NCBI RefSeq assembly: GCF_044704955.1
Contig: NC_091995.1
Location: forward strand, 15,810,001-15,874,000
Source of the DNA: Pristiophorus japonicus
Lineage: Eukaryota
DNA length: 64,000 bases
Direction: 5' to 3'
Below, one piece after another: positions 9,001 to 64,000 of this stretch. The translations under genes and the position numbers were made by a program. The notes under the pieces were generated by a model. It did no database searches, was not told the origin of the DNA, and saw only the letters and a list, made by a program, of their open reading frames with translations. Numbering within the stretch: position 1 is the first letter of the stretch; every line of letters begins with the position of its first letter.

Positions 9001-12000
9001 CTGGGTAATGGGGTGTGTGAGGGTCAGTACCAGGCTAGGTACTGGGCATTAACCATGGGGTAATGGGGTGTGAAAGAGTCAGTACCAGGCTGGCTACTGG
9101 GCATTAACCCTGGGGTAATGGGGTGTGAGAGGGTCTGTACCAGGCTAGGTACTGGGCATTAACCCTGCGATAATGGGGTGTGTGAGGGTCAGTCCCAGGC
9201 TGGGTACTGGGCATTAACCCTGGGGTAATGGGGTGTGTGAGGGTCAGTACCAGGCTAGGTACTGGGCATTAACCCTGCGACAATGGGGTGTGTGAGGGTC
9301 CGTACCAGGCTAGGTACTGGGCATTAACCCTGGGTAATGGGGTGTCAGAGGGTCAGTACCAGGCTGGGTACTGGACATTAACCCTGGGGTAATGGGGTGT
9401 GAAGGGTCAGTACCAGGCTGGGTACTGGGCATTAACCCTGGGGTAATGGGGTGTGAGAGGGTCAGTACCAGGCTGGGTACTGGGCATTAACCCTGGGGTA
9501 ATGGGGTGTGAGAGAGTCAGTACCAAGCTGGGTACTGGGCATTAACCCTGGGGTAATGGGGTGTGAGAGTGTTAGTACCAGGCTGGGTACTGGACATTAA
9601 CCTGGGTAATGAGGTGTGAGAGGGTCAGTAGCAGGCTGGGTACTGGGCATTAACCCTGGGGTAATGGGGTGTGAGAGGGTCAGTACCAGGCTGGGTACTG
9701 GGCATTAACTTGGGTAATGGGGTGTGGAGAGGTCAGTACCTGGCTGGGTACTGGGCATTAACCTGGGTAACGGGGTGTGAGAGAGGCAGTACCAGGCTGG
9801 GTACTGGGCATTAACCCTGGGGTAATGGGCTGTGAGAGAGTCAGTACCAGGCTGGGTACTGGGCATTAACCTGGATAATGGGGTGTGAGAGTGTTAGTAC
9901 CAGGCTGGGTACTGGGCATTAACCTGGGTAATGGGGTGTGAGAGGGTCAGTACCAGGCTGGGTACTGGGCATTAACCCTGGGGTAATGGGGTGTGAGAGG
10001 GTCAGTACCAGGCTGGGTACTGGGCATTAACTTGGCTAATGGGGTGTGGAGAGGTCAGTACCAGGCTGGGTACTGGGCATTAACCCTGGGGCAATGGGGT
10101 GTGAGGGGGTCAGTACCAGGCTGGGTACTGGGCATTAACCCTGGGGTAATGGGGTGTGAGAGGGTCAGTAGCAGGCTGGGTACTGGGCATTAACCCTGGG
10201 GTAATTGGGTGTGAGAGAGTCAGTACCAAGCTGGGTACTGGGCATTAATCCTGGGGTAATGGGGTGTGAGAGGGTCAGTACCAGGATGGGTACTGGGCAA
10301 TAACCCTGGGGTAATGGGCTGTGAGAGAGTCAGTACCAGGCTGGGTACTGGGCATTAACCTGGGTAATGGGGTGAGAGAGTGTTAGTACCAGGCTGGGTA
10401 CTGGGCATTAACCTGGGTAATGGGGTGTGAGAGGGTCAGTACCAGGCTGGGTACTGGGCATTAACCCTGGGGTAATGGGGTGTGAGAGGGTCAGTATCAG
10501 GCTGGGTACTGGGCATTAACCCTGCGATAATGGGGAGTGAGAAGTTTAGTACCAGGCTGGGTACTGGGCATTAACCCTGGGGTAATGGTGTGTGAGAGGG
10601 TCAGTACCAGGCTGGGTACTGGGCATTAAATCTGGGGTAATGGGGTGTGAGAGGGTCAGTACCAGGCTTTACTGGACATTAACCCTGGGATAATGGGGTA
10701 TGAGAGGGTCAGTACAAGGCTGGATACTGGACATTAACCCTGGGGTAATGGGGTGTGAGAGGGTTAGTACCAGGCTAGGTACTGGACATTAACCCTGCGG
10801 TACTGGGGTGTGAGAGGGTCAGTACCAGGCTGGGTACTGGGCATTAAACATGGGGTAATGGGGTGTGAGAGGTTCAGTACCAGGCTGGGTACTGGGCATT
10901 AACCTAGGTAATGGGGTGTGTGAGGGTCAGTACCAGGCTAGGTACTGGGCATTAACCATGGGTTAATGGGGTGTGAAAGAGTCAGTACCAGGCTGGCTAC
11001 TGGGCATTAACCCTGGGGTAATGGGGTGTGTGAGGGTCAGTACCAGGCTAGGTACTGGGCATTAACCCTGCGATAATGGGGTGTGTGAGGGTCAGTACCA
11101 GGCTAGGTACTGGGCATTACCCTGGGTAATCGGGTGTCAGAGGGTCAGTACTAGGCTGGGTACTGGACATTAACCCTGCGATAATGGGGTGTGTGAGGGT
11201 CAGTACCAGGCTAGGTACTGGGCATTACCCTGGGTAATGGGGTGTCAGAGGGTCAGTACCAGGCTGGGTATTGGACATTAACCCTGGGGCAATGGGGTGT
11301 GAGGGGGTCAGTACCAGGATGGGTACTGGGCATTAACCCTGGGGTAATGGGGTGTGAGAGGGTCAGTAGCAGGCTGGGTACTGGGCATTAACCCTGGGGT
11401 AATGGGGTGTGAGAGAGTCAGTACCAAGCTGGGTACTGGGCATTAATCCTGGGGTAATGGGGTGTGAGAGGGTCAGTACCAGGATGGGTACTGGGCAATA
11501 ACCCTGGGGTAATGGGCTGTGAGAGAGTCAGTACCAGGCTGGGTACTGGGCATTAACCTGGGTAATGGGGTGAGAGAGTGTTAGTACCAGGCTGGGTACT
11601 GGGCATTAACCTGGGTAATGGGGTGTGAGAGGGTCAGTACCAGGCTGGGTACTGAGCATTAACCCTGGGGTGATGGGGTGTGAGAGGGTCAGTACCAGGC
11701 TGGGTACTGGGCATTAACCTGGGTAATGGGATGTGAGAGGGTCAGTACCAGGCTGGGTACTGGGGCATTAACCCTGGCATAATGGTGTGTGAGAGGGTCA
11801 GTACCAGGCTGGGTACTGGGCATTAATGGTGGGGTAATGGGGTGTGAGAGAGTCAGTACCAGGCTGGGTACTGGGCATTAACCCTGGGGTTATGGGGTGT
11901 GAGAGAGTCAGTACCAGGCTGGGTACTGGGCATTAACCCTCGTGTAATGATGTATGAGAGGGTCAGTACCAGGCTGGGTACTGGGCATTAACCTGGGTAA

Positions 12001-15000
12001 TGGGGTGTGGAGGGGTCAGTACCAGGCTGGGTACTGGGCATTAACCTGGGTAATGGGGTGTGTGAGGGTCAGTACCAGGCTGGGTACTGGGCATTAACCT
12101 GGGTAATGGGTTGTGTGAGGGTCAGTACCAGGCTAGGTACTGGGCATTAACCTGGGTAATAGGGTGTGAGAGGGTCAGTACCAGGCTGGGTACTGGAGAT
12201 TAACCTGGGGTAATGGGGTGTGAGAGGGTCAGTACCAGGCTGGGTACTGGGCATTAACCTGGGGTAATGGGGTGTGAGCGGGTCAGTACCAGGCTGGGTA
12301 CTGGGCAGTAACCCTGTGATAATGGGGTGTGAGGAGGTTAGTACCAGGCTGGGCACTGGGCTTTAAGCGTGGGGTAATGGGGTGTGACAGGGTCAGTACA
12401 AGGCTGGGTACTGGGCATTATCCTGGGGTAATGGGGTGTGAGAGGGTCAGTACCAGGCTGGGTACTGGACATTAACCCTGGGCTAATGGGGTGTGTGAGG
12501 GTCAGTACTAGGCTAGGTACTTGGCATTAACCCTGGGGTAATGGGGTGTGAGAGGGTCAGTACCAGGCTAGGTACTGGGCATTAACCCTGGGGTAATGGG
12601 GTGTGAGAGGGTCAGTACCAGGCTGGGTACTGGACATTAACCCTGAGGTAATGGGGTGTGAGAGGGTCTGTACGAGGCTGGGTACTGGGCATTAACCCTG
12701 GGATAATGGGGTGTGAGAGGGTCAGTACCAGGCTGGGTAATGGGACATTAACCTGGGATAATGGGGTGTGAGAGGGTCAGTACCAGGCTAGGTACTGGGC
12801 ATTGAACCTGGGGTTATGGGGTGTGATAGGGTCAGTAACAGGCTGGGTACTGGGCATTAACCCTGGGGTAATGGGGTGTGAGAGGGTCAGTACCAGGCTG
12901 GGTACTGGACATTAAACCTGGGGTAATGGGGTGTGAGAGGGTTAGTACCAGACTAGGTACTGGACATTAACGCTGCGGTAATGGGGTATGAGAGGGTCAG
13001 TACCAGGCTGGGTCCTGGGCATTAACCCTGGGGTAATGGGGTGTGAGAGGGTCAGTACCAGGCTGGGTACTGGGCATTAACCCTGGGGTAATGGGGTGTG
13101 TGAGGGTCAGTACCAGGCTAGGTACTTGGCATTAACACTGGGGTAATGGTGCTTGAGAGGGTCAGTACCAGACTAGGTACTGGGCATTAACCCTGGGGTA
13201 ATGGGGTGTGAGAGGGTCAGTACCAGGCTAGGTACTGGGCATTAACCTGGGGTAATTGGGTGTGAGAGGGTCAGTACCAGGCTGGATAGTGGGCATTAAC
13301 CTGGGATAATGGGGTGTGAGAGGGTCAGTACCAGGCTAGGTACTGGGCATTAACCTGCGGTAATTGGGTGTGAGAGGGTCAGTACCAGGCTGGATAGTGG
13401 GCATTAACCTGGGATAATGGGGTGTGAGAGGGTCAGTACCAGGCTAGGTACTGGGCATTGACCCTGGGGTAATGGGGTGTGAGAGGGTCAGTACCAGGCT
13501 GGGTACTGGGCATTAACCATGGGGTAATGGGATGTGAGAGGGTCAGTACCAGGCTGGGTACTGCGCATAAACCTGGGTAATGGGGTGTGTGAGGGTCAGT
13601 ACCAGGCTGGGTACTGGGCATTAACCCTGGGGTAATGGGGTGTGAGAGGGTCAGTATCAGGCTGGGTACTGGGCATTAACCCTGCGATAATGGGGTGTGA
13701 GAAGTTTAGTACCAGGCTGGGTACTGGGCATTAACCCTGGGGTAATGGTGTGTGAGAGGGTCAGTACCAGGCTGGGTACTGGGCATTAACCCTGGGGTAA
13801 TGGGGTGTGAGAGGGTCAGTACCAGGCTTTACTGGACATTAACCCTGGGGTAATGGGGTGTGAGAGGGTCAGTACAAGGCTGGATACTGGGCATTAACCC
13901 TGCGATAATGGGGTGTGAGAGGGTTAGTACCAGGCTAGGTACTGGACATTAACCCTGCGGTACTGGGGTGTGAGAGGGTCAGTACCAGGCTGGGTACTGG
14001 GCATTAAACATGGGGTAATGGGGTGTGAGAGGTTCAGTACCAGGCTGGGTACTGGGCATTAAACATGGGGTAATGGGGTGTGAGAGGTTTAGTACCAGGC
14101 TGGGTACTGGGCATTAACCTAGGTAATGGGGTGTGTGAGGGTCAGTACCAGGCTAGGTACTGGGCATTAACCATGGGTTAATGGGGTGTGAAAGAGTCAG
14201 TACCAGGCTGGCTACTGGGCATTAACCCTGGGGTAATGGGGTGTGTGAGGGTCAGTACCAGGCTAGGTACTGGGCATTAACCCTGCGATAATGGGGTGTG
14301 TGAGGGTCAGTACCAGGCTAGGTACTGGGCATTACCCTGGGTAATCGGGTGTCAGAGGGTCAGTACTAGGCTGGGTACTGGACATTAACCCTGCGATAAT
14401 GGGGTGTGTGAGGGTCAGTACCAGGCTAGGTACTGGGCATTACCCTGGGTAATGGGGTGTCAGAGGGTCAGTACCAGGCTGGGTATTGGACATTAACCCT
14501 GGGGCAATGGGGTGTGAGGGGGTCAGTACCAGGATGGGTACTGGGCATTAACCCTGGGGTAATGGGGTGTGAGAGGGTCAGTAGCAGGCTGGGTACTGGG
14601 CATTAACCCTGGGGTAATGGGGTGTGAGAGAGTCAGTACCAAGCTGGGTACTGGGCATTAATCCTGGGGTAATGGGGTGTGAGAGGGTCAGTACCAGGAT
14701 GGGTACTGGGCAATAACCCTGGGGTAATGGGCTGTGAGAGAGTCAGTACCAGGCTGGGTACTGGGCATTAACCTGGGTAATGGGGTGAGAGAGTGTTAGT
14801 ACCAGGCTGGGTACTGGGCATTAACCTGGGTAATGGGGTGTGAGAGGGTCAGTACCAGGCTGGGTACTGGGCATTAACCCTGGGGTAATGGGGTGTGAGA
14901 GGGTCAGTATCAGGCTGGGTACTGGGCATTAACCCTGCGATAATGGGGAGTGAGAAGTTTAGTACCAGGCTGGGTACTGGGCATTAACCCTGGGGTAATG

Positions 15001-32860: not shown

Positions 32861-33571
32861 CAGTTTCCACAGTATTAATGATAATTAGAATCTCCATATG
32901 GAAAAATATGCCCTATAAATAGCCATTTAATTGAAGTTATTCTCTCACTCGTAATAACCATTGAAACCGTCTTAAGCAGCATAGTAGTTTCTGCATCGTA
33001 TGGCTCTTTTAAAAAATCGGCCTTTAATTATTCGGGTATACTACCTGTAATTCTGGAATAGAGTACTAAAACAAGGAGAGGAATAGAATTAAGCAGCAGT
33101 AATAGTGAAAAAAATGAACTCACCATTTAATAAAATCAGTAGCATCAAATTAACGGCAATGATTTTATGGAGTGCAGTCATCTTTCTGTTTCCTTAATAG
33201 ACGCGAGAAACTCTGCAACCACTCCTGCTTTTGAAAGTTTTTTTTAAAGGTGCACAAGATAGGTATCATGTTGTGTGTCAGTGATGAAATCATTACATTT
33301 GTGCCAGAAGTTAGATGCCACATGGTTCAAGCACAAGGCAGTTTAATTACACTGTAGCATGTGGCACCAAGACTAGCAGGGTGCCGTGTTGATCGTGGAT
33401 GATTTTAAAAACATATTTATTTGTTCACAGGAAGTGGGCATTGCTGGCAAGACCGCCATTTATAGAAACATAGAAACATAGAAATTTACAGCACAGAAGG
33501 CCATTTTGTCCCATCGTGTCTGCGCCGGCCGACTAAGAGCCGTATGGCCCTTGGTCAGCAGCCCTGGAGGA

Positions 33572-49894: not shown

Positions 49895-49937
49895 ATGCTA
49901 TGGGATGGAGTCGTTTGGCCTTTGCTGTTGTTCTCTG
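49895..49937 (+). CDS. ncr3: Signal-peptide exon of the NKp30/NCR3-like gene (MLWDGVVWPLLLFS-G)
   Basis: An ATG starts 14 mostly hydrophobic codons plus 1 nt, followed by the consensus donor G|GTAAGT. Phase 1 matches the V exon and gives the leader MLWDGVVWPLLLFSGVTVSS. The join crosses an assembly gap. Confidence 0.72.
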
Positions 49938-49966
49938 GTAAGTAATCCATATGCAGGGTCTCTTTT

Positions 49967-50218
49967 GTATATATATACGTACACAGGTGTTTATAGACAT
50001 ATACATATATTTACACTACATACAGGTATACATACATATACAGGTACACTTAAATGTACACATACACATATATACACTCACCCACGCATAACAATCAGAT
50101 ACATCCATATACAGTTGAACATACATATACAGATGCATATATTTTTCCACATACACACACACACACATATATATATACTTACATATACATAGAGATCAAC
50201 ATATATATGCAGGTATAT
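49967..50218. repeat. Degenerate (TA)/(CA) low-complexity tract
   Basis: Directly visible; it runs into the gap. Confidence 0.95.
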
Positions 50219-50514
50219 NNNNNNNNNNNNNNNNNNNNNNNNNNNNNNNNNNNNNNNNNNNNNNNNNNNNNNNNNNNNNNNNNNNNNNNNNNNNNNNNNN
50301 NNNNNNNNNNNNNNNNNNNNNNNNNNNNNNNNNNNNNNNNNNNNNNNNNNNNNNNNNNNNNNNNNNNNNNNNNNNNNNNNNNNNNNNNNNNNNNNNNNNN
50401 NNNNNNNNNNNNNNNNNNNNNNNNNNNNNNNNNNNNNNNNNNNNNNNNNNNNNNNNNNNNNNNNNNNNNNNNNNNNNNNNNNNNNNNNNNNNNNNNNNNN
50501 NNNNNNNNNNNNNN
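50219..50514. other. Assembly gap (296 N)
   Basis: Run of N. Confidence 1.
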
Positions 50515-51439
50515 TGTGGGACTCATCCCGTTGATATAACTTCCTCAACAATAGAATCGCAATTTTCTAAGATGCTGTTGCTAACTGTTGTTGTTAATCG
50601 TCGAAAAATCGGCGGCAACGCATTTAAACGTTTCCAGTAAGCCCCTCTGCTGCATTATGCCTTACGATAGACAAAAGTACAGAGCGATTTGACACAGAAA
50701 TGGAGACAGGTGACTGAAGCTGCCAGGCTAGTTCGGAAGCGGCAAGAGTCGAGTGAATTAATTGCGCCCCAGTGTCGCTGCCGAGCGGCCGGATGGGAAC
50801 TTGTATCTATACGTATCTATATCTATCTATATCTATATGAAATTATTTTAAAAACTGCACCTGACACCAGGTGGCGAAGGATCTGATGCCAACGATCACC
50901 CCCTTTCATAAGTTCCGCTGATTACCTCCAGGATTTTCTTTGTTCATGTCAGTTTCGCTGGCTTGGCTGTTTCACCTTGTCTTTGGCCCCATTTATTAGT
51001 TCACCCTGCGCTCGTCAAACCCTGCCAAGTGCACCAGTTATTGGTGTCAATCCCCGATGAGCTATTCATAAAAACAAATATTTAATTGTGGAATGTGAAG
51101 CATGAGTCGTTAACAAAAACCTCGTAAAACCGCGCGAGCTGTGTAAAAGTTATTGGGCGAAAAATTCGGGGGCAGCGCACCCACATTTTTCGATGCCCCC
51201 CCGCCCCCCTGCGAAGCCTGCTCAACTATATCCCTGAGGCTTAGCAAACCCAGTCCTACATTTCTGATGCAGCCATGTGTTAGTTAGTCCTCGTTAGTAA
51301 TCGAATTCAAGCCCTAAAGGATGAGAGTATAAATGACTAGACTGGACTAATCCTAGTCACTCCGGTCCAGCCACCTGTTCTCTACAGTCTTCTGCTCATC
51401 CCAAACTTTTCTCCCCGTAATCTATCCAGCATCCTGTTC

Positions 51440-51880
51440 CCATCTCTAAATAACCCATGTGCTCGCCCACTCACATTTGTCTCCCGGTCACGCAATGCCT
51501 CAGTTCTTATTCTGGCGTGTAATCCCTATATGGCTTCAATCCTCCCTGTCGCCGCAACTTCTTCCAGCCCTGCAACTCTCCAACAACTTTTCATTCCTCT
51601 AAAACTGGAGGCTGTACTTCCGCCAACCCACCCCACCATTGGTGGCAGTGCCTTTAGCCTCTTGGCCCCATGCTCTGGAATTCCTTCCCTAAACCTCTAT
51701 ATCTTTCCGCCTCCCTCTCCTCCTGTAAGACCATCCCTAAAAACTCACCCATTTGAACCTGCCGACTGTTCCCCTCTAACATCAACTTCTTGAGGGCCAG
51801 TCCAATTTTCTTGGATTAGGGAACGTATTGGGGTCTGTTTGACATTAAAGGCTCCATATCCGTGCAGATTGTTATTACTG
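51440..51880 (+). mobile_element. Old L2 3' fragment
   Basis: ACCATTGGTGGCAGTGCCTTTAGCC...CTGGAATTCCTTCCCTAAACC resembles 42260-42320. Confidence 0.65.
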
Positions 51881-52184
51881 CTATTGTTGAAATGTAGAAA
51901 AGAGCAGTTAATAGCAATAGGCGGCGTTGTTCGGCTAACTTAGGGGAAAAAACGTATTCTTCATCTCTGAATGAAGGGGACTGGGGTAGGTTAAAGCACC
52001 ACTGTTTCTAGTTAAGTTATAACTTCTGGAAATTAATATACCAAAACCAACTTGCAAAGGGCATGTCAGAAACATGGACTGGCTTTCCAGATGTGCGAGT
52101 GAAAGTAAAAACTCTGGATTCAAGAACAACTTGTATTTATATAGCGCCTTTAATGTAGTGAAACATCCCAAGGCGTTAGATTTA

Positions 52185-54175
52185 AGTGTAAGAAGGTAAG
52201 GGAAGTGGACCTAAGTCCATGATCGGATCAGCTATGAACATATTAAATAGCGGAGCAGGCTTGAGGTGCCATATGGCTTATTCATGCTCCTATTTCTTAT
52301 ATTCTTACGTTCTTATGTAGATTATGAGAGTAAATTAGCAAGAAATATATGAGTTTCTCAAATGTATAAAAAAAAGGAAGAGAATGGCTAAAGTAAATGT
52401 TGGTCCCTCAGAGAATGAGACTGGGGAATTAATAATGGGGAAAAAGAAAATAGCAGAGACTTTGAACAAATATTTTGTTTTGTTCTTCAAGGTAGAAGTC
52501 ACTAAAAACATCTCAATAATGGATAATCAAGGGGCTATAGGGAGGGAGAAAATTAAAACAATCAATATCACTAAAGAAAAATATTCAGTAAAATAATGGG
52601 ACTAAAGGTGGACAAGTTCCCTGGATTGATGGCATGCATTCTAGGGTTTTAAAAGAAGTGGCTGCAGAGATAGTGGATGCATTGGTTGTAATCTACCAAA
52701 GTTCCCTGGATTCTGGAGAGGGCCCAGCGGATTGGAAAACCGCAAGTGTAACCCCCTATTTAAAAAAAGAGGCAGACAGAAAGCAGGAAACTATAGACCA
52801 GTTAGCTTAACATCTGTCATTGGGAAAATGTTGGAGTCCGTTATTAAGGAAGCAGTAGCAGGACATTTGGAAAAGCAATAAAAAGTCAAGTAGAGTCAGC
52901 ATGGTTTTATGAAAATGAAATCATGCTTGAGAAATTTTCTGGAGTTCTTTGAGAATGTAACGAACAGAATGGATAAGGGGGAACTAGTGGATGTGGTTTA
53001 TTTGGATTTCCAGAAGGCATTTGATAAGGTGCCACATAAAAGGTTACTGGGCAAGATAAAAGCTCATGGTGCTGGGGGTAATATTGATAGAGGATTGGCT
53101 AACTAAAAGAAAGCAGAGAATTGGGAGAAATGGGTCATTTACCGGTTGGCAAATGGTAACTAGTGGGGTGCCACAGGGATCAGTGCTGAGGCCTCAGCTA
53201 TTTACAATCTATATTAATGATTTGGATGAAGGGATCGAGTGTATTGTAGCCAAGTTTCCTGAAGAATAAAAAGATAGGTGAGAAAGCAAGTTGTGAGGAG
53301 GACACAAAAAAATCTGCAAAGGGATATAGATAGGCTAAGTGAGTGTGCAAACATTTGGCAGACGGAGTATAATGTTGGAAAGTGTGTGATTATCCAGTTT
53401 TACAGGAAAAATAAGAAAGCAGATTATAATTTAAATAGAGAGAAACTACAAAATGCTCAGGTACAGAGGGACGTGGGGTCCCTGTGCATGAAACACATAA
53501 CGTTAGTATGGAGGTACAGCAAATAATTAGGAAGTCAAATGGAATGCTGAACTTTATTGCAAAGGGGATGGAGTATAAAAGCAAAGAAGTCCTGCTACAA
53601 CTGTACTGGGTATTGGTGAGGCCACAACTAGAGTACTGCGTACAGTTTTGGTCTCCTTATTTAAGGAGAGATATATTTGCATTAGAGGCAGTTCAGAGAA
53701 GATTTGTGAAGTTGATTCCTGAGATGAAGACGTTAACCTATGAAGAAAGGTTGAGTACGTTGGGCCTATACTCATTGGAGTTTAGAAGAATTAGAGGTGA
53801 TTTTATTGAAACATATAAGATACTGAGGGGGTTCGTCAAGGTTGACGCAGAAAAGATGTTGCCCCTCGTGGGGGATCGAGAAATAGGGGTCATCGTTTCA
53901 GAATAAGGGATCGACCATTTAAAGTTGTGATGAGGAGGAATTTCTTCCCTCAGAGGATTGTAAATCTGTGGAATTCTCTGCCACAGCAAGTTGTGGAGGC
54001 TGGGTCTGAATATATTCAAGGGGGAGATACACACATTTTTGAGTGATAAGTGTTATGGGCAGTGGGCAGGGAAGTGGTGCTGACCCCATGATCAGCTCCA
54101 CCATGATTTGAATGGCAGAGCAGGCTCGAGGGGCCAAATGGCATACTCCTGCTCCAATTTCTTATGTTCTTATGT
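52185..54175 (+). mobile_element. Two adjacent CR1 pieces (52185-52316 tail; 52317-54175 RT to 3' end), inserted into an antisense L2
   Basis: Motifs VYLDFQKAFDKVPH, SGVPQGSVL and LVRPQLEYCVQFW are present. The L2 tail lies at 52123-52178 and its body resumes at 54176. Confidence 0.92.
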
Positions 54176-54690
54176 AAGGTGCATCACAAGAGTGTTATAA
54201 GACAAGAAAATTGACACTGAACCATATAAGTAGAAATTAGGGCAGGTGACCAAAAGCTGGAGCAAAGAGGTAGGTTTTAAGGAGCGTCTTAAATAAGGAA
54301 AGACAAATGGAGAGGCAGCGAGGTTTAGGCAGGGAATTCCAGAGCTTAAGGCTTTAGCAACAGAAGGCATGTTCGCCAATGGTTGAGCAATTCTAATCAG
54401 AGAGGCTCAAGTGACCAGCATGAAAGGAATGCAGATATCTCGGCAGGGGGAGATTGCGGGACTGCAGGGGGTAACAGAGAAACGGAGGGGCAAGATTATG
54501 GAGGGATTGTAAAACAAGGATGAGAATTTTGAAATCGAGGCGTTGTTTAATTGGGAGACAATGTAAGTCAGCAAGTCAACGGTTGATAGGTGAACAAGAT
54601 TTGGTGCGAGTTAGGACACAGGCAGCCAAGTATTGGATGAACTCAAGTTTACGTGGGTAGACCGTACGAGAGCAGGCAGGAGTGCGTTGT
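54176..54690 (-). mobile_element. L2 3' fragment
   Basis: Reverse-complement similarity to 41940-42450. Confidence 0.8.
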
Positions 54691-54699
54691 AAAAATGTC

Positions 54700-55818
54700 T
54701 TCACTCAGAGGGTGGTGAACCTTCTTGAAGCGCTGCAGTCCAGTGCTGACTCTAGCGTAGTGGGTTGGTACAACTGAAAGGCTCACTCGGCCATTTCATC
54801 GGGCAATTAAGAGTCAACCACATTACTGTGGGCCTGGAGTCTGGAGTCCAGGTAAGGGCGACAGATTTCCTTCCCTAAAGGACATTAATGAGCCAGATGG
54901 TAAGTTTTATGGTCACCATTACTGAGTCAAGCGTTTTATTTTAAATTCCAGATTTATTGGTCCAGAAATTCCAGCCTCCCCAGATCTGTACGGAGTGTAT
55001 ATAAACCGGGAGGCATCGCAAAAGCTGGTTTTCAATGCACAATGCGCATGCGCTGAAAACCGGATTTTCTGATCTGTCAAGCTGGAGCGAAGACATTTGC
55101 ATGTGCAAGATTGCAGTATTTACCCATATCTTGCCCAGCAAATGTCCTCAAAACTCTTGCGCCAGATTAAAGCAGGTGCATAGCCTACTGTTATAGGCAT
55201 AGAAGTTTTAAAAGACACTTAAAGCATAAAAAATAAAATTACAAAAAGACATTTTATTTTTAAAAACCTTGCCCACTACAGTAAATTTATTTTAAAGGAT
55301 AATTTAAAAATCTTTTTAAAAACTCGGAAAAAAAATTATCTTAAGATATTTATTACCTTTAATTTCAATTAATTTAAATTATGTCAAATGTGTTTTTTAA
55401 TTTTTATTTGGTGTTATTGTGTTTGTTTTTTTTCAATTAATAACAATCAAAACTCGTACATACGGAGTTCCCATTGCTATTAATTGAGAATACTTTATCT
55501 GACTGGTTGAGCAGACACATGTGAATGCATCTTCTGCGTGGGAAGCTGGAGGATGGGAGCGCGCTTTGCAGCCAGGAACAGAAGGCCTCCCCAGAGGAAT
55601 CCCATGCTCCTCCCGGACCACCAGATACTTTCGGAAAAATTCTCTGGTCGGAAGCATTCGTATGAAAGAAGCCTCTGACCGGAATTTCAGGGCCATTAAA
55701 TTAACTGAAATATAATTCCCCAGCTGCCGCTGAGGCATTTAAAGTCAAGTCACCGGATCATTACTCCAGGTCTCTGAATTACACGTTCAGTTACATAACC
55801 ACTATGCTACTGTGCCCC
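54700..55818 (-). mobile_element. tRNA-derived SINE (second family) split by a MITE
   Basis: 54700-54958 and 55695-55818 join into a copy collinear with 63545-63951. Confidence 0.72.
54959..55694. mobile_element. Non-autonomous DNA transposon (MITE), PIF/Harbinger-like
   Basis: Imperfect 14-bp TIRs GGTCCAGAAATTCC / GGAATTTCAGGGCC, a 3-bp TSD ATT, and clean interruption of a SINE. Confidence 0.75.
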
Positions 55819-55846
55819 GAATTAATGAGATTATTTACAGTTACAG

Positions 55847-56200
55847 GAGTTACTGTCTCCAGTGTTGCAGTCAGCCAAACACCGCCTTCGGTTAGTGTCA
55901 CCGAAGATGGCACATTGCATCTGTACTGTAATTTCAGTGTGAATAAAATTGCTTCAGGAAACAATGTTATTGGTGCCGTAACCTGGTACAAAGACACAAA
56001 AGCATGCCTAGTTTGTCAGAACTGCTCAGAATATATCGGTCGCGTTCTGCTGTCTGATTCAACTTCCTTTCAAGAATTTCAAATCGCATCTTTGACAATC
56101 ACGGATGTGAAACGGAATGACACGGGATGGTACTACTGTGAAGTGGATCTTCTCATCGATGGGAAGGGCACCGGAGAAGGGACTGAAGTCACAGTGAACC
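55847..56200 (+). CDS. ncr3: Ig V-set domain exon with germline-joined J-like G strand, NKp30/NCR3-like; alternative acceptor gives a start at 55841
   Basis: It has the canonical Cys (LYC), Trp (IGAVTWYKD), DTGWYYC and GKGTGEGTEVTV. It is collinear with NKp30 as I recall it (IGSVTWFRD, FRGRL, GVGTGNGTRLVV). It is bounded by a TTACAG acceptor and a C|GTGAGT donor, both phase 1. Confidence 0.9.
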
Positions 56201-56404
56201 GTGAGTTTGCATGAACTTACATCTTCCTTTAGATTCAGCTTTCTCCAAAAACAAAATGTTTAAATGGAAACTTGGGTTAATGAAATCATTACTACATTAA
56301 TTGAAATGTTCCCTGTCAGGTCTTTCCTGCAAGATGGGTAAACTGACGAGTTTGGGTACAATGCTCGTATTACACCCGCCTGATTTTACTCTCCATTGAA
56401 ATGA

Positions 56405-56995
56405 AGGTTAAAGAAGTCTCAGTAATATTATACAGGACATTGGTGAGGCCACACCTGGAGTACTGTATACAGTTCTGTTCTCCTTAGTGAAAGAAGGACA
56501 TACTTGCCTTGGAGGGAGTGCAACAAAGGTTTATTACTGGCTCCTGCAATGAGTGGATTGCCCTATGAGGAGAGATTGGGTAGACTAGGTCTATATTCCC
56601 TAGAGTTTAGAAGAATGAGAGGTGATCTCATCGAAACATATAACATTCTTAAGGGGCTTGACAGGGTTAATGCTGAGAAAATGTTTCCCCTGGCTGGAAA
56701 GTCTCAAACATGGGGGCAGATTCTCAGAATAAGGGGTCAGAGATTTAAGAATGAGAGCAGGAAACATGTCTTCACTGAAAGGGTTATGAATCTTTGGAAT
56801 TCTCTAACCAGAGGGCTGTGGATGCTCAGTCATTGAATATATTCAAAGGTTGTCTCTAAGGGAATCAAGGGTGTTATGAGGATAGCGCTGGAAAGTGGAG
56901 TTGAGGTAATAGATCAAGCATGATCTTGTTGAATGGCAGGGCAAGCTCAAAGGGCCGAATGGTCTACACTTCTTCCTATTTCTTATGTTCTGATG
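56405..56995 (+). mobile_element. CR1 3' fragment (intronic)
   Basis: It encodes YEERLGRLGLYSLEFRRMRGDLIETY and ends in a CR1 tail. Confidence 0.92.
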
Positions 56996-57919
56996 CTATT
57001 ATAAGTTTACATTCTGGGGGTAATCGCAACCAAACTCTTTGGGCTGGAAATCCACGGATCGTGTAGAATGCTAATTTTTACACAGCAGCCCACTATTACA
57101 CCCCATTTACTTTAATGAAGAGTAAAATCGGGCGGGTAGTAAAACCAGCATTGCACCCAGAGGTGCAGCATAGTTTACATTTTCTCCCTATATATTTGTC
57201 TTTAAATTCTGCTGTGCCCAATGTAAATGTTTTAATGGGCTACTAGAAAAGAAGTTTGTAGGTAGCCAAACCGTAACCGGTTTTCTGAAAGGTTCCCATA
57301 TTGGCTACTTATCGTAAAATTATCAAGAAATTGAATAGAAATAATAATCAAACGTAAATTATTACTATTGGGGCAAAAATAATTCCGAATAAATTGTTGC
57401 CTCTGAAATAACTTTCGTATGCAAAATGTGTATAGGCTTTGCCTTATAAATGATATTTATAATCAGATTCCCAAAATGCCAGCTATCCCACAATTTATAT
57501 CGGTTCTCTTTGCAATCAATCTGCCTTCAAAATAATATGGTGAGTGATCTAAAATCATAACTAAGTTAATCCTGTATGACGAACTTGAACCAGACAGGTA
57601 GGCAGCACATAAGATCACGATTAATTCATCAATCAGTGAAGCTGATTAATAAAAATTGGAGGGGGTGTCATGTCACCAGGGATGAAAAGTTTTGCACACT
57701 TCGAGTTAACCTAGATAACCCAGAGGGATTCAATGAGCAAACTGACAGTTAAGCTGTTTTTTTCTACTGGCAGACACATTTTAGAATCGTTATTTGTTGA
57801 GTAGTAAAGCAAAATTGTACGCACTAATTTTGAACTATTTGTTGATGGTCAACAAAGAATATATTTTCGGCATTTAAAATTTCACCCTGGCTGATGGTCG
57901 TTAAATATATTTCAAATGA

Positions 57920-60411
57920 ATGATCAGCGGAGCCAGAAAAATATAACTTTTTCTCTACAAAAGCGAAGGCTGAGGGGTGACCTGATAGAGGACTTTAAGA
58001 TCATGAAAGGGGTTGATAGGTTAGACATAAGGAAGGTGTTGTCACTTGAAGGGGGAGTCAAAACCTAGCGGGCAAAAATATACCATAATCATTAATAATG
58101 CCAGTAAGGAATTCAGGAAAATGTCTTTACCCAGATAGTGGTTAAAATGTGGAACTCGCTACCACATGGAATGGTTGAGGTAAATAGCATAGATCCATTT
58201 AAGGGGAGGCTAAGTAAGTAATTGGGGTTGAATAAAAGAAAGACATGCATTTATATATCACCTTTCTCAGCCACCCCACGACCCAAAGCACTTTATAGCC
58301 AATTAAGTACTTGTTTGAAGTGTAGTCACTGTTGTAATGTAGGAAATACAGCAGCAAATTGTGCACAGCAAGCTCTCACAAACAGCAATGTGATATTGAC
58401 CAGGTAATCTGTTTTAGTGATGTTGATTGAGGGATAATTATTGGCCAGGACACCGGGCAGAACTCCCCAGCTGTCATAAAAGGGTATGATGATAGGATTA
58501 GATGACGTAAAGAAGAAGAAGGCTCGTGTTGGACATAAAGAGCAGCATAGACAGGTTGGGCTGAATGGTCCGTTTCTGTGCTGTAAATATTATGTAATTA
58601 CAATTTTCAGTCTTCATTGAAAATTTCTTTCATCTGTAAACTTCAGATACTTCCTGCAGTACGTGACCCATGCAACTATTTGTCATCAGAATGAAATTGA
58701 TGGCAAAGACAAATGTTTCTAAAACTGCATCTCTTACTTCTCTCAAGATCCAACACACGTTTCAACTAAACTCTAAAGTTTATAGAACCATAGAAGTTCA
58801 CGGCATGGAAGGAGGGTATTCAGCCCATCATGTCTGTGCCTACCAAGAAAGAGGTGTCCAGCCTAATCCTACTTTCCACCTCTTGGTCCGGGGCCCTGTA
58901 GGTTATGGCACTTCAAGCGTATATCCAAGATTGTTTTAAATGCTGAGGGTTTCTGCCTCTTCCACAATTTCAGACAATAAGTTCCAGACTGCCACCACCC
59001 TCTGGGTGAAAATATCTCAACGCCCTTCTAACCCTTCTACCAATTACATTAAATCTATTGCCCCTGGTTATTTACCTCTCTACTAAGGGAAATAGGTAAT
59101 TCCTATCCATTATATCTAGGCCCCTCATAATTTTATACATATTTAGCCTAGTCTTGTTTCCCTTTCCCTCGAAGCGCATGATCAGCGAAGCCAGGAAGAA
59201 CGTAACATTTTCTCTAGAGAAGGCTGAGGGGCGACCAGATAGAGGTCTTTAAGATTATGAAAGGGGTTGATAGGTTAGATATAGAGAAGATATTGCCACT
59301 TGTGGGGGAGTCTAAAACTAGGGGCCACAAATATAAGATAATCACTAATAAAGCCAATAAGGAATTCAGGAGAATCTTATTTACCCAGAGAGTGGTTAGA
59401 ATGTGAAACTGCTACAATATGGAGTGGTTGAGAGAAATAGCGAAATGCATTTGGGGTGGAGGGGGGAGGGGGGGATAAGTAAATGGGGGAGAAAAAAAAG
59501 AAACACTTGCATTTATATATTGGCTTTCATTGCCACCGGATGCCCCAAAGCACTTTACAGGCCAATGAAGTATTTTTTGAAGTGTAGTCGCTGTAGGAAA
59601 CGTGACAGCCAATTTGCACACAGCAAGTTTCAACGACCAGCAATGTAATAATGAACAGGTAATCTGTTTTTATTGATGTTGAATGAGGGATAAATAATGG
59701 CCAGGACACCGGGGAGAACTCCCCTGCTGGAAAAGAAGGACCTGCGGATAGGATTAGATGAGGTAACGAGGGCGGAGGCACGTGTTGAGCATAAAGAGCG
59801 GCATGGAGCAGTTGGGCTGAATGGCCTCTTTCTGTTATGTAAATATGGTGTAAATACAATTTTCAGTCTTCATTGAAAATTGCTCTCATCTGAAAACTCC
59901 AGTTACCAAACCTTCCCGTCACACATGACCCATTCAGCTATTTGTCATGAGAATGAAATTGATGGAAAAGACAAATGTTTCTAAAATTACATTTCCTGCT
60001 TCCCACAAAACACGTTTCAACTAAACTCTGAAGTTGAGAACTTTATAGAATTATAGAAGTTTATGGCACAAAACGTCATTCGACCCATCTGTCTGAATTC
60101 ACCGAAAAAGAGCTAACGAGCAGAATCCCATTTTCCAGCTCTTGGCCCATAGCTCTGGAGGTACACATACAGGTAATTTTTTAATATGATGAATGCTTTT
60201 GTCTCTTTTATCCTTTCAAGCAGTGAGTTCCAGACCCTCGCCACCATCTGGGTGAAAACATTTCTCCTCAACTCCCCTCTAATCCTTCTACAATTACTTT
60301 AAATCAATGCCCCCTGGTTATAGAGCCCTTTGCCAAGGGAAATAGTTGCTTCTTATCCACTCTATCTTGGCGCCTCCAACTTTATAGATTTTAGCTTAGT
60401 CTTGTTTCCCT
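57920..60411 (+). repeat. Diverged tandem duplication of about 1.25 kb (57920-59165 and 59179-60411)
   Basis: Both units start ATGATCAGCG(G/A)AGCCAG, end TAGTCTTGTTTCCCT and share the same mosaic: CR1(+) with a nested SINE(-), a non-TE spacer, then CR1(-). Confidence 0.85.
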
Positions 60412-60952
60412 ACGATATAGAACTTTTTCAAACATAGGCTGCTTTTCAGATATTTGAATAAATGTTGATGATTTTCAACTCAGACATTGGATAGGCAGTT
60501 TGTATCGCAAAAATTTCTGGGTGAACCTCATTTCCTTGGCGTTGCTTGACCAGTTTAAGATACCTTCTGATATTTTTTACAATGTGAAAGATCCAGAGCG
60601 AGAACCAACAATGCAGTTGCAAAGTTTGGAAAGAAGTTGTAATCCCGCATATCCATATATCAGACTGCAGAATAGTAACGGTTCCTAGTTCATAACCTGC
60701 AAATCAGAACCTAATGCCAAATACATTGCTGAACCTTAATTATCAACAACTATATACGACATATTATGAAAAGAAAATTTGAAAGTTGCAAATTGTAAAT
60801 TAGTCCTCCACCCAATGAACTAAAATAATCCAATGTTGCAAACACTTTACCCACTATAGGGAACCAGTCGATTTCACTTTGCTGAAATCATATGGATAGA
60901 CAATGGCGTTATTGCAAGTTGCACATTACCAACTGCTACAAAGTTATGATGA

Positions 60953-61610
60953 AATCATAGAGAATCATAGAATGGTAACAACACGGAAGAAGGCCATTCA
61001 GACCGTCAATCTCATGCCGGCTCTCAGCTAGTCCCACTCCCCTGCCCTTTCCACCTAGACCTGCAATGTTTCCCCTGCAGGCTTATCTGGTTCCCTTTTG
61101 AAAGATAAGATACATTTTCAGGCAGTGCATTCCAGAACACAACCGCTCGCTTCATAAATCAGTTTTTTCATTATGTCACGTCTCCTTTGGTTCTTTTGCC
61201 AATCACCTTAAACCTGTGTCCTCTAGTTCTCAACCATTCTGCCAATGGAAACAGCTTCTCTCTATCTGTCCAGGCCACTCCTGATTTTGAACAGCTCTAT
61301 TAAATCTCCTCTTAATCTTCTCTGCTCCAAGGAGAAAAAACCCCAGCTTCTTCAGTCTATCAATGGAACTGAAATCCTTCATTCCCTCATCTGAATTCCC
61401 TCATCTTTTCTGCACCCTCTCTAATTCCGCATATCGTAAACTGTGGAGCTTAGAATTGGGCACTGTACACCAATGGGGCCGAACCAATATTTTATACATG
61501 TTCATCCTAAATTCACACTTTTGTGCTCTATTTATGAAGCCCAGGATCCGGTAAGCCCTTTTAACTGCTTTCTAAACATGCCCTGTCACCTTCAACGATT
61601 TATACACACA
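60953..61610 (-). mobile_element. CR1 3' fragment (intronic)
   Basis: It is collinear with 21985-22525. Confidence 0.85.
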
Positions 61611-61638
61611 AGCGCACATATCCTTTGCTATTCTGCAG

Positions 61639-61671
61639 GTCTGACATCAGGATCGTATCTGGACAGAAAAG
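61639..61671 (+). CDS. ncr3: 33-nt stalk micro-exon of the NCR3-like gene ((R)LTSGSYLDRK(G))
   Basis: Acceptor TCCTTTGCTATTCTGCAG and donor AAG|GTAAAC bound a symmetric phase 1-1 exon that is open in frame between the V and TM exons. Confidence 0.62.
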
Positions 61672-62244
61672 GTAAACCAAGTATTGAAACCGATTTAGTT
61701 CTGCCATAGAAAGTGGACTGGAAACCTCCACCCAATTATATTTGGTAAACTAATTGTTTACTGCTGGGTGTGAAGTCAGGTCTCGTGGCATCCTCAATTT
61801 GTGTCTCATCACACTAATAAAATTTGAGCTTGGACGCACCAGTAAATAAATTATTTATTTATGTGGTGATTATTCCCCTACAATCAGACTAGACCCACAC
61901 GGGAGAAAGAGAAAGAGAGAGAGGTCTGCACAGAACATTGTAGAGTTGTTACCCCTCCTCCCCCCTCCCCCCATACAGCTGATAATACCAACCAACTGCA
62001 ATACCACGCAAAGTGGAAAGAAAAACACATTTTTTTCTTTATGTGGTCACCACCATCGTGCTGTGCTGTGCTGAGGGTGTTGTCTCTCAACTAAGGTGTC
62101 TCAACTGAGAAGGCAGACAAACTCAATTTAACGTCTCATTCGAAATACGGCACCTCCGACAGTGCAAGCATACGGCGAACAATAGCAACCAAAAAAAAAC
62201 GCAAAGGAGGGAGGAAAGAAACACTTTTTTTCTCATCTCTGCAG

Positions 62245-62382
62245 GTCACGATGAAGCTGAAGTGACATCGGTTGCGGTTCAAAGAAACATATATGAGCTC
62301 CTTTTTTCAGTGCTGGCCGTTGTGCTCTTCGCGTTGACCCTTGTTATAATAATTTCTACCCTGCACTGCTGCGGATCTCCAG
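62245..62382 (+). CDS. ncr3: Stalk and transmembrane exon (HDEAEVTSVAVQRNIYELLFSVLAVVLFALTLVIIISTLHCCGSP)
   Basis: It has a strong acceptor (TTTTTTTCTCATCTCTGCAG) and a CAG|GTAATT donor, is phase 1-1 in frame with the V exon, and encodes a hydrophobic stretch of about 22 aa. Confidence 0.85.
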
Positions 62383-62427
62383 GTAATTATCCTGAATTTA
62401 ACTTCATTGATAGGTGGATTGAGTTAT

Positions 62428-62888
62428 CAAAAAATAAAGACTGCATTTATGTAGCGCCATTTCACAACCACCCGACGTCACAAAGCACTTTACAGCCAAT
62501 TAAGTACTTTTGGAGTGTAGTCACTGTTGTAATGTGGGGAAGGCTGCAGCGAATTTGCGCACAGCATGCTCCCACAAACAGCAATATGATAATGAGCGGA
62601 TTATCTGCTTTGTTTTGTTGATTGAAGGATAAATATTTTCTCGGACGCAGGGGATAACTTTCCAGCTCATCTTCGAAATAGTGCCATGGTATCTTTTACG
62701 TCCACCTGAGAAGGCAGACGGGCCGGTTTAACTTCTCAACCGAAATACGGCACCTCCGACAGTGTAGCACTCATTCGGCACTGCACTGGAATGTCAGCCT
62801 GCATTTTGTGCTCAAGCCCCTGGGATTTGATCCTATAACCTTCTGACTCAGAGGCGAGTGTGCTGTCCATTGAGCAACAGCTGATACA
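62428..62888 (-). mobile_element. Deu-like SINE
   Basis: It is collinear with 31046-31496. Confidence 0.85.
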
Positions 62889-63076
62889 CCGATGAGTCTA
62901 ATGAGTTAGGACAAGCCCATCTCTTTCCTTCAACGAATGAAGGACTATATCTGTTAAATAATAAACCCCCCTGATGTATAGCTTATATTGCATATCGACA
63001 ACTGCACTACAAGAATCAAAATGTTTGATAATTGGAATAGTGCCGACGTTTACTCTGATCATTTTTGTTCACCAAG

Positions 63077-63108
63077 AGAAACTATATGAGTTGCTTACAT
63101 TACGTTAG
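63077..63108 (+). CDS. Tentative terminal cytoplasmic exon ((E)KLYELLTLR*)
   Basis: A branch-like CTGAT, a short pyrimidine tract and an AAG acceptor give a phase-1 read-through to TAG. AATAAA occurs at 63477. The acceptor is weak. Confidence 0.4.
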
Positions 63109-63544
63109 GAAAAAATGGTATAGTTTTGCAAAGTTTAGAGCGTGGTTTGTTGACAAAATATTGAAAGATTCATATTTTAATTAGTGTAGAGGCAATTAAA
63201 GGAAAGACGGAATATGCGTTAAAGGTAATAGCATTACAGTGTGCTCACCACGAGAGACTGCCATCGGTGGCGCCAGGGACGGAATGAGCCCGAGATTTAA
63301 CTCACACCCACACCCTTATTTTCTTATTGGCGGCCCATTCTGTTTAGCATACATTTGCCAGGTCGTCATAGTACAGTCGAAGGGTTGGTGGCATTGGCAC
63401 TAGTGAAACGCATTGGGGAAAGCTAAAGGAGCAGGACGGCCGTCTATCTGCGTTACCTTGCCAAGCAAGAAGCTCGAATAAAAAAAAACAACAGCTTCAA
63501 TTTATAAAGCGTCTTTAACATAGTAAAACGTCCAAATGTGCTTC

Positions 63545-63951
63545 ATTTTTTTAATAGCTCATGGGATGTGGGCGTATCATTTATTGTTCGTCCCTATTTT
63601 GCCCTTGAGAATTGCCCTCTGAAATAGTTTGCTCGGTCATTTAATTGCTAGTTAAGTGTCAACCACATTGCTGTTGGTCTGGAGTCATATTTCGGCCACT
63701 CTGGGTAAGGACAGCAGATTTTCTTCTCTAAAGGACATTTGTGAATCAGATGGGTTTTTATGACAATCCAGTAGTTTCATGTTCACCATTACTGAAACCA
63801 GCATTGTAATCCCGATGTATTTAATTTACATTTACATTGAATTTACATTTCCCAGCTGCTTGTTGTGGTATTTTACCTCATATCTCCGACATCATTAGTC
63901 CAGGTCTCTGGATTACTAGTCCAATAACATAACTACTACGCCACCGTTCCC
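63545..63951 (-). mobile_element. tRNA-derived SINE (second family)
   Basis: The minus strand begins GGAACGGTGGCGTAGTAG (A-box-like), and the body is shared with 54700-55818. Confidence 0.78.
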
Positions 63952-64000
63952 ACTCATGGACGCGTTATCAGACACAATTTGATTCCGAGCCACTTAAGGA

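What the first reader, a model, noticed from the sequence alone, without database searches (positions are those of the whole stretch)
49895..63108. Reconstructed NKp30/NCR3-like receptor of about 199 aa from five phase-1 exons
Seen in the sequence: exons of 43+354+33+138+32 = 600 nt splice in frame into leader, V domain, stalk, TM and short tail. The ORF track shows only pieces with false starts. Established: NCR3 encodes a non-rearranging V domain with a joined J-like GxG strand, binds B7-H6, is MHC-linked in mammals and has homologues in sharks. Inference: this is a divergent NCR3 family member, and the window may lie in an MHC-linked or paralogous region.
Basis: partly seen in the sequence, partly recalled or inferred. 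Interest (0 to 1): 0.7.

Follow-up and report, generated by a model that had tools for sequence, protein, structure and literature searches.

The report
Shark NKp30 relative with three brakes
This is a shark gene related to the human killer-cell trigger NKp30, but its likely true ending lies just beyond the scanned window and encodes three off-switch motifs, so it likely dampens rather than triggers immune cells, alongside neighbouring sister genes that are predicted to be on-switches.

Summary
Real gene, right family, wrong ending. The five segments splice in frame as described, but only exons 1, 2 (V) and 4 (transmembrane) match relatives. The horn-shark relative (64% identical V) lacks the 33-nt 'stalk' exon, whose acceptor sits in a decayed LINE, and does not match the 32-nt 'tail'. 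The matching tail lies past the window edge (extended coordinates 64,568-64,599 and 65,071-65,355), giving 283 aa with an uncharged membrane segment and three ITIM-consensus motifs; the last motif's tyrosine is kept in 6 of 6 aligned shark and ray relatives. NKp30 is the best sequence and fold match. The gene lies among 35 related V exons near TNF genes and BAG6 on the MHC class I contig; neighbours carry Lys/Arg membrane anchors or ITIM tails. Reading: a likely inhibitory member of the shark NCR3 paired-receptor family. Expression, ligand and signalling are untested; tree tests did not reject rival placements. The shark family is published (Kinlein 2021, title only seen), and this scan already noted ITIM-bearing NKp30-like genes on other DNA (24 notes, at least 9 genomes).

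The parts
49895..49937 (+). Exon 1, leader (43 nt, phase 1)
   Evidence: GT donor; 64% to P0001 residues 1-14; start aligns with relatives' starts
55847..56200 (+). Exon 2, single germline-joined VJ-type IgV domain (354 nt) with GxG G strand, canonical Cys/Trp/Cys, three extra Cys between strands C and D, three N-glycan sequons
   Evidence: Pfam V-set E 7e-11; NKp30 best PDB sequence hit E 3e-11; fold Z 17.3; 64% to P0001
61639..61671 (+).
   Evidence: Gap against P0001; no protein match; acceptor in antisense LINE remnant
62245..62382 (+). Exon 3 of the corrected gene: short stalk, uncharged transmembrane helix, juxtamembrane Cys-Cys (138 nt)
   Evidence: 62% to P0001 133-177; hydropathy
63077..63108 (+).
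   Evidence: No protein match; one of 3 equivalent acceptors
62383..64000 (+). Intron 3 of the corrected gene, running off the window's end. The two tail exons lie OUTSIDE the window: 32 nt at extended 64,568-64,599 (G000:C19:15874568-15874599) and 285 nt with stop at extended 65,071-65,355 (G000:C19:15875071-15875355), the latter with three ITIM-consensus motifs (IIYANL, VVYSAL, VVYAAV); AATAAA at extended 65,482
   Evidence: 32-nt exon 77% to P0001 179-191 with AG/GT ends; last exon E 3.9e-17, 53% to P0001 188-280; motifs

Best explanation
The locus likely encodes a 283-residue single-V-domain membrane protein of the shark NCR3/NKp30 family whose uncharged membrane helix and three ITIM-consensus tail motifs make it a likely inhibitory receptor. 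Shown: the exons, the open frame, homology along the whole length to shark and ray proteins, the motifs, the cluster and its MHC class III-type neighbours. Inferred from established ITIM biology: on binding a cell-surface ligand (likely a B7-family protein of the B7-H6 kind, untested) the tail tyrosines would be phosphorylated by a Src-family kinase and recruit SHP-1/SHP-2-type phosphatases, damping signals from sister receptors of the same cluster that have a Lys/Arg membrane anchor and a short tail and would signal through ITAM adaptors. The splicing itself is inferred from homology, not from transcripts.
For: Corrected model aligns end to end with horn-shark XP_067865303.1 with 170 identities in 283 columns and one 3-residue gap. 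Three ITIM-consensus motifs in a 105-aa tail; 253 of 100,000 tail shuffles reach three. The last motif's Tyr and Val are invariant in 7 of 7 aligned tails; all three motifs are intact in the skate protein P0049. NKp30 ranks first by sequence (E 3e-11 against 1e-6 for the next), by Foldseek (2e-12 against 3e-9) and by VIA-align (Z 17.3, rmsd 2.5, 113 aligned, against Z 14.3); the model (pLDDT 91.6) has a helix at 71-77, where the alignment places NKp30's alpha-2 residues F85-L86. The tree puts it with hamster, lizard, axolotl and lungfish NCR3/NCR3-like proteins (91/83) and apart from SIRP, CD28-type, TCR and IgL rows. 35 of 35 own-genome matches at E<=1e-3 are on C19; BAG6 is 1.14 Mb away, 11 of 28 TNF matches lie at 10.5-11.2 Mb, 22 of 41 MHC class I matches at 40-57 Mb. 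Four neighbouring membrane exons carry Lys/Arg and short tails (one belongs to a frameshifted gene); two neighbours differ by 4 of 114 V residues yet have opposite tails.
Against: No transcript or protein evidence for any junction. AU tests on 113 columns did not reject joining its lineage to the CD28 family (p 0.10), SIRP (0.18) or TCR/IgL (0.11); the 91/83 branch is unstarred and 3 of the 10 C19 rows fall outside it. A profile of the cluster ranks multi-domain pIgR and diabodies above NKp30 by summed score, although NKp30 is the best single-domain hit. The two upstream motifs are lost in horn shark (only an ITSM-type motif remains) and the first in the stingray P0003. An ITIM consensus need not function: the NKp44 ITIM failed to recruit phosphatases (PMC6514059, passage). 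Only 6 of 11 B7-H6 contact residues are identical, not significantly above background (p 0.13).
Confidence: 0.8

Rival explanations
1. The first reader's 199-aa short-tailed form is made as an alternative isoform (extra stalk exon and/or early last exon), giving a decoy without ITIMs, much as human NKp30a/b/c differ in their tails.
For: Both extra segments have proper splice ends and keep frame; the 33-nt segment is the only symmetric candidate besides a 63-nt one between V and the membrane exon; the early exon lies in unique DNA with ATTAAA 87 nt after its stop; human NCR3 has tail isoforms (PMC6514059, passage); skate proteins have longer stalks.
Against: Neither segment matches any of the stored relatives under 800 aa; the 33-nt acceptor is LINE-derived; the horn-shark model runs without it.
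Confidence: 0.1
2. It is an inhibitory VJ receptor of another family (PD-1/CD28H-like, SIRP-like or NITR-like) that resembles NKp30.
For: ITIM/ITSM tails with a single V domain are typical of PD-1 and CD28HL3 (PMC11599192, passages); AU tests did not reject these placements.
Against: No PPP/EIP motif of the CD28 family in the FG loop; NKp30 is clearly first by sequence and fold; class III position; this genome's CD28-type V exons lie on other contigs and branch apart.
Confidence: 0.05
3. The gene is intact in frame but silent or decaying, like two broken neighbours.
For: Neighbours at C19:15.909 and 15.917 Mb have a stop or frameshift; the protein itself was not returned by database searches.
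Against: All five exons are open with intact splice ends and polyadenylation signals; the V domain has a short end branch (0.19); all three motifs are intact.
Confidence: 0.05

Closest known systems
Human NKp30 (NCR3; PDB 3noi, 3pv6, 6yjp)
   Same: Single germline-joined VJ domain, 33-35% identical, best fold match; 6 of 11 B7-H6 contact residues identical (I50, G51, V53, S82, F85, L113), E111 to D; class III setting near TNF and BAG6.
   Different: NKp30 has a membrane Arg, binds CD3zeta/FcRgamma and has no signalling tail (PMC6514059); this protein has no membrane charge, a 105-aa tail with three ITIM-consensus motifs, three extra V-domain cysteines, and sits in a multigene cluster. Not a one-to-one orthologue: shark genes form their own expansion.
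Shark NCR3 family (Kinlein et al. 2021, title only seen; nurse-shark NCR3 genes MT914154-914161 cited in PMC12227049)
   Same: Non-rearranging, MHC-linked VJ gene family of sharks (PMC12227049 and PMC10751288, passages).
   Different: Could not compare with the nurse-shark subtypes or see whether that paper reports ITIM tails; the paper is not held.
Heterodontus francisci XP_067865303.1 'NCR3-like' (P0001) and Chiloscyllium, Hypanus, Hemitrygon, Narcine, Rhinoraja models (P0002, P0003, P0009, P0017, P0049)
   Same: Likely orthologous lineage: the V domains of P0001, P0002, P0003, P0017 and the Lys-anchored P0011 group with the query at 97/88; P0009 joins that group in the larger quick tree; P0049 lacks a full V and was placed by its tail. 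Same tail layout and last motif.
   Different: They keep one to three tyrosine motifs; they are automatic gene models, mostly 'uncharacterized'.
Paired receptor families (SIRP, PILR, KIR/LILR; recalled)
   Same: Works like them: related or near-identical ectodomains with either a charged membrane anchor or an ITIM tail.
   Different: Built on the NKp30 V domain and located on the MHC chromosome.

Membership tests
NCR3/NKp30 family | V domain in one exon with joined J-like G strand (GxG), no V-J split | tested here: met
   One 354-nt exon holds strands A-G with the GxG strand; a heptamer-like word at 56,190 lies in coding sequence with no nonamer evident 12 or 23 nt on (and reading)
NCR3/NKp30 family | NKp30 is the nearest characterised V domain by sequence and fold | tested here: met
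NCR3/NKp30 family | Groups with tetrapod NCR3 in a tree | tested here: inconclusive
   91/83 clade with hamster and lizard NCR3, but AU tests reject no alternative
NCR3/NKp30 family | MHC class III linkage | tested here: met
   BAG6 at C19:17.01 Mb, TNF cluster 10.5-11.2 Mb, class I 40-57 Mb
NCR3/NKp30 family | Binds B7-H6 | not tested
   No shark B7-H6 sequence was in hand; contact residues 6 of 11 identical
Activating NKp30 proper (mammalian type) | Arg/Lys in the membrane helix for ITAM adaptors, short tail | tested here: not met
   No charged residue in the helix core; 105-aa ITIM tail. Neighbours do meet it
ITIM inhibitory receptors | (S/I/V/L)xYxx(I/V/L) motifs in a cytoplasmic tail | tested here: met
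   Three motifs at residues 197, 246, 276, conserved to varying degrees
ITIM inhibitory receptors | Phosphatase recruitment and inhibition | not testable with these tools
   Needs a cell assay
CD28/CTLA4/CD28H family | PPP or EIP motif in the FG loop (PMC11599192) | tested here: not met
   FG loop lacks prolines; the genome's own PPP-bearing V exons are elsewhere
Rearranging Ig/TCR | Separate V and J with RSS, C1 constant domain | tested here: not met
   Joined VJ spliced to a membrane exon; no C-domain exon in the model or in P0001

The most novel reading that the evidence does not exclude
The NKp30 locus was ancestrally a paired-receptor complex in the MHC class III region, and this gene is a member of an inhibitory lineage kept across sharks and rays with an up-to-three-ITIM tail; mammals would have kept only an activating copy. 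ITIM-bearing NCR3-like proteins in lungfish, axolotl and gecko fit this. Its extra V-domain cysteines might add a lineage-specific disulfide or covalent dimer.
Probability: 0.5. Interest if true: 0.5.

Novelty: new member of a known kind. Interest (0 to 1): 0.3.

Why it matters
NKp30 is one of the few NK receptors traceable to sharks and a model for the unsplit VJ gene that preceded antibodies and T-cell receptors. An inhibitory branch with activating sisters would show self-tolerance logic built on that domain inside the early MHC, and gives a concrete receptor for testing 'missing-self' control in cartilaginous fish. The family itself is published and the theme recurs in this scan, so this locus adds a clean example and a corrected gene model, not a new system.

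Tried and rejected
RNA support: no RNA holder listed for the V exon, so no reads were laid; this says nothing on expression. Word-index protein searches: V exon at near lengths found nothing, the tail exon at longer lengths found nothing; weak negatives. MHC class II beta search found nothing and its controls were silent, so it is uninformative. The 107-row tree did not finish its careful search and the quick tree left the deep branches open; the 34-row tree is a hand-picked subset of 317 extracted domains. AU tests were undecided in all 5 comparisons, including grouping with mammalian NCR3 alone (p 0.24) and all 22 NCR3-like rows as one clade (p 0.32). No complex prediction was run: no B7-H6 partner was in hand, and a pass would lean on the solved human complex. 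Literature: searches for NKp30+ITIM+shark+Xenopus, XMIV+Xenopus, NCR3+ITIM+nurse shark and NKp30+cartilaginous fish+inhibitory listed no paper whose title or abstract start describes inhibitory shark NCR3, but Kinlein 2021, Flajnik 2012, Ohta and Flajnik 2015 and Flajnik 2023 are not held, so absence from print is not claimed; from recall, Xenopus MHC-linked V genes of this family were described with both ITIM and charged forms. No supplements were read; those of PMC10751288 may map these genes. The second cluster (C19:17.25-18.0 Mb) was examined for V exons only. Earlier notes by place and by sequence gave nothing.

Full report
Setting. The window is G000:C19:15,810,001-15,874,000 of a 5.9-Gb genome. 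Genes next to it match UniRef proteins labelled Pristiophorus japonicus at 92-100% per exon hit, so the genome is likely that sawshark or a very close relative. One masked stretch (50,219-50,514) falls in intron 1.

Observation. That alone is weak for the two tiny exons: three acceptors between the membrane exon and the window end pass the same filter, and each gives a short tail. A database search with the V exon returned one protein, horn-shark XP_067865303.1 'NCR3-like', 280 aa, 64% identical. Searching the genome with it found the V exon, the membrane exon, and a third match 1,065 bases past the window's end (E 3.9e-17). Fetching that DNA showed a 32-nt exon at extended position 64,568-64,599 and a 285-nt last exon at 65,071-65,355, with matching phases and AATAAA signals behind. 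The 33-nt exon's acceptor lies at the end of an antisense LINE remnant. Either could still be a minor isoform; no transcripts were available.

Anatomy. Leader, one joined VJ-type IgV exon (Pfam V-set), short stalk, a membrane helix without Lys, Arg, Asp or Glu in its core, a juxtamembrane Cys pair, and a 105-residue tail with three ITIM-consensus motifs at residues 197, 246 and 276; 253 of 100,000 shuffles of the tail give three or more. A search of 1.84 billion representatives with P0001 (150 listed of 220) brought relatives from bamboo shark, two stingrays, an electric ray and a skate (named). In the 7-row alignment (rows picked for their similarity to P0001) the last motif's Tyr and Val are invariant; the first Tyr is kept in 5 of 7 rows and the second in 5 of 7; horn shark keeps only the last, as an ITSM-type motif. 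The V domain has three extra cysteines between strands C and D; 5 of 7 relatives checked have one or more there.

Family. NKp30 is the best PDB match by sequence (E 3e-11, next 1e-6). An AlphaFold model (pLDDT 91.6, 83 sequences) matches NKp30 first in Foldseek (2e-12, next 3e-9) and VIA-align (Z 17.3, rmsd 2.5, 113 aligned; next 14.3). Of the 11 NKp30 residues named as B7-H6 contacts in Table II of PMC3135353 (passages; its text says 12), 6 are identical in the alignment and E111 is Asp; against 34% background this is not significant (p 0.13). A 34-row tree groups the gene with its shark and ray relatives (97/88), within a shark expansion (89/89) beside tetrapod NCR3 (88/90), the whole at 91/83 and apart from SIRP, CD28-type, TCR and IgL rows (the outgroup labels for genomic rows are my reading of their motifs); three C19 rows fall outside. 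AU tests rejected no alternative, so the tree supports but does not prove membership. It is a family member, not a one-to-one orthologue of mammalian NCR3.

Neighbourhood. All 35 genome matches to the V exon lie on C19, in clusters at 15.67-16.23 and 17.25-18.0 Mb. BAG6 lies between them at 17.01 Mb, 11 of 28 TNF-family matches at 10.5-11.2 Mb, and 22 of 41 MHC class I matches at 40-57 Mb. The order TNF - NCR3 - BAG6 is that of the human class III region (recalled). In 660 kb around the window there are 14 V exons, two of them broken. Of 9 membrane exons located, 4 carry a Lys or Arg in the helix and end in short tails (one in a frameshifted gene), and 5 do not; ITIM-type tails were seen behind 3 of those 5. 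Two neighbours differ at 4 of 114 V residues, one Lys-anchored and one ITIM-tailed. Among 21 hand-picked relatives, the 12 with ITIM/ITSM motifs lack a mid-helix charge and the 9 without motifs have one (the helix of P0003 was read; P0001 has a Lys at the inner end); the ITIM group includes lungfish, axolotl and gecko proteins.

Mechanism. Shown: exon structure by homology, motifs, cluster, linkage. Inferred: ligand binding (likely a B7-family molecule) would lead to tail phosphorylation and SHP-type phosphatase recruitment, opposing ITAM-adaptor signalling of the charged sisters. Human NKp30 signals through a membrane Arg and CD3zeta/FcRgamma (PMC6514059, passages); this gene lacks that feature, so it is not NKp30 proper. 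The same review notes an NKp44 ITIM that does not recruit phosphatases, a caution.

What is known. Shark NCR3 is described as a non-rearranging MHC-linked VJ family with eight accessions listed among nurse-shark genes (PMC12227049, passages; PMC10751288, abstract and passages). Kinlein et al. 2021 was seen only as a title in reference lists (PMC10450919; PMC12272517). PMC11599192 (passages) gave the CD28-family motifs used to reject that family. This scan holds 24 notes in at least 9 genomes under the words NKp30, NCR3, shark and ITIM (8 shown); they are unchecked AI notes, those on NKp30-family genes agree with the reading I stated before opening them, and they are not counted as support.

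Verdict. New member of a known kind; interest 0.3.

Noticed in passing
window 33,124-33,181 (-): A 58-nt phase-1 leader exon resembling the leader of NCR3-like protein P0075, head-to-head with the studied gene. The nearest V exon downstream on that strand is 176 kb away (C19:15,666,383-15,666,703), beyond the satellite array, so either its first intron holds the whole array or the leader is orphaned.
   Followed up: partly
window 1-18,003: 55-bp GC-rich satellite (331 copies in the window), the end of an array spanning about C19:15,681,700-15,827,800 inside the receptor cluster.
   Followed up: partly
G000:C3:316.6-319.3 Mb: Nine near-identical MHC class I matches covering alpha1 and alpha2 in one open frame (419-777 aa, E about 4e-50), off the MHC contig; possibly intronless or retroposed class I copies. 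PMC10751288 reports no class Ib genes outside the elasmobranch MHC.
   Followed up: no
G000:C19:15,943,634 and 15,969,263 (L002, L003): V exons differing at 4 of 342 bases and 4 of 114 residues; one gene has a Lys membrane anchor, the other a two-ITIM tail.
   Followed up: partly
G000:C19:16.18-16.28 Mb: Three near-identical V exons spaced about 50 kb apart: a recent tandem segmental duplication or an assembly repeat.
   Followed up: no
G000:C19:15,883,004-15,884,008 (-): Open frame that reads like retroviral RNase H/integrase (my reading of motifs, not tested), 8 kb downstream of the gene.
   Followed up: no
G000:C9:4,441,879-4,442,193 (L111): A weak Ig V-like match lying in an open frame of 3,056 codons; fetched, not analysed.
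   Followed up: no
P0097 (matches C19:16.04-16.08 Mb): A database model that appears to fuse LINE sequence and two separate receptor genes of this cluster, showing that automatic annotation here is unreliable.
   Followed up: partly
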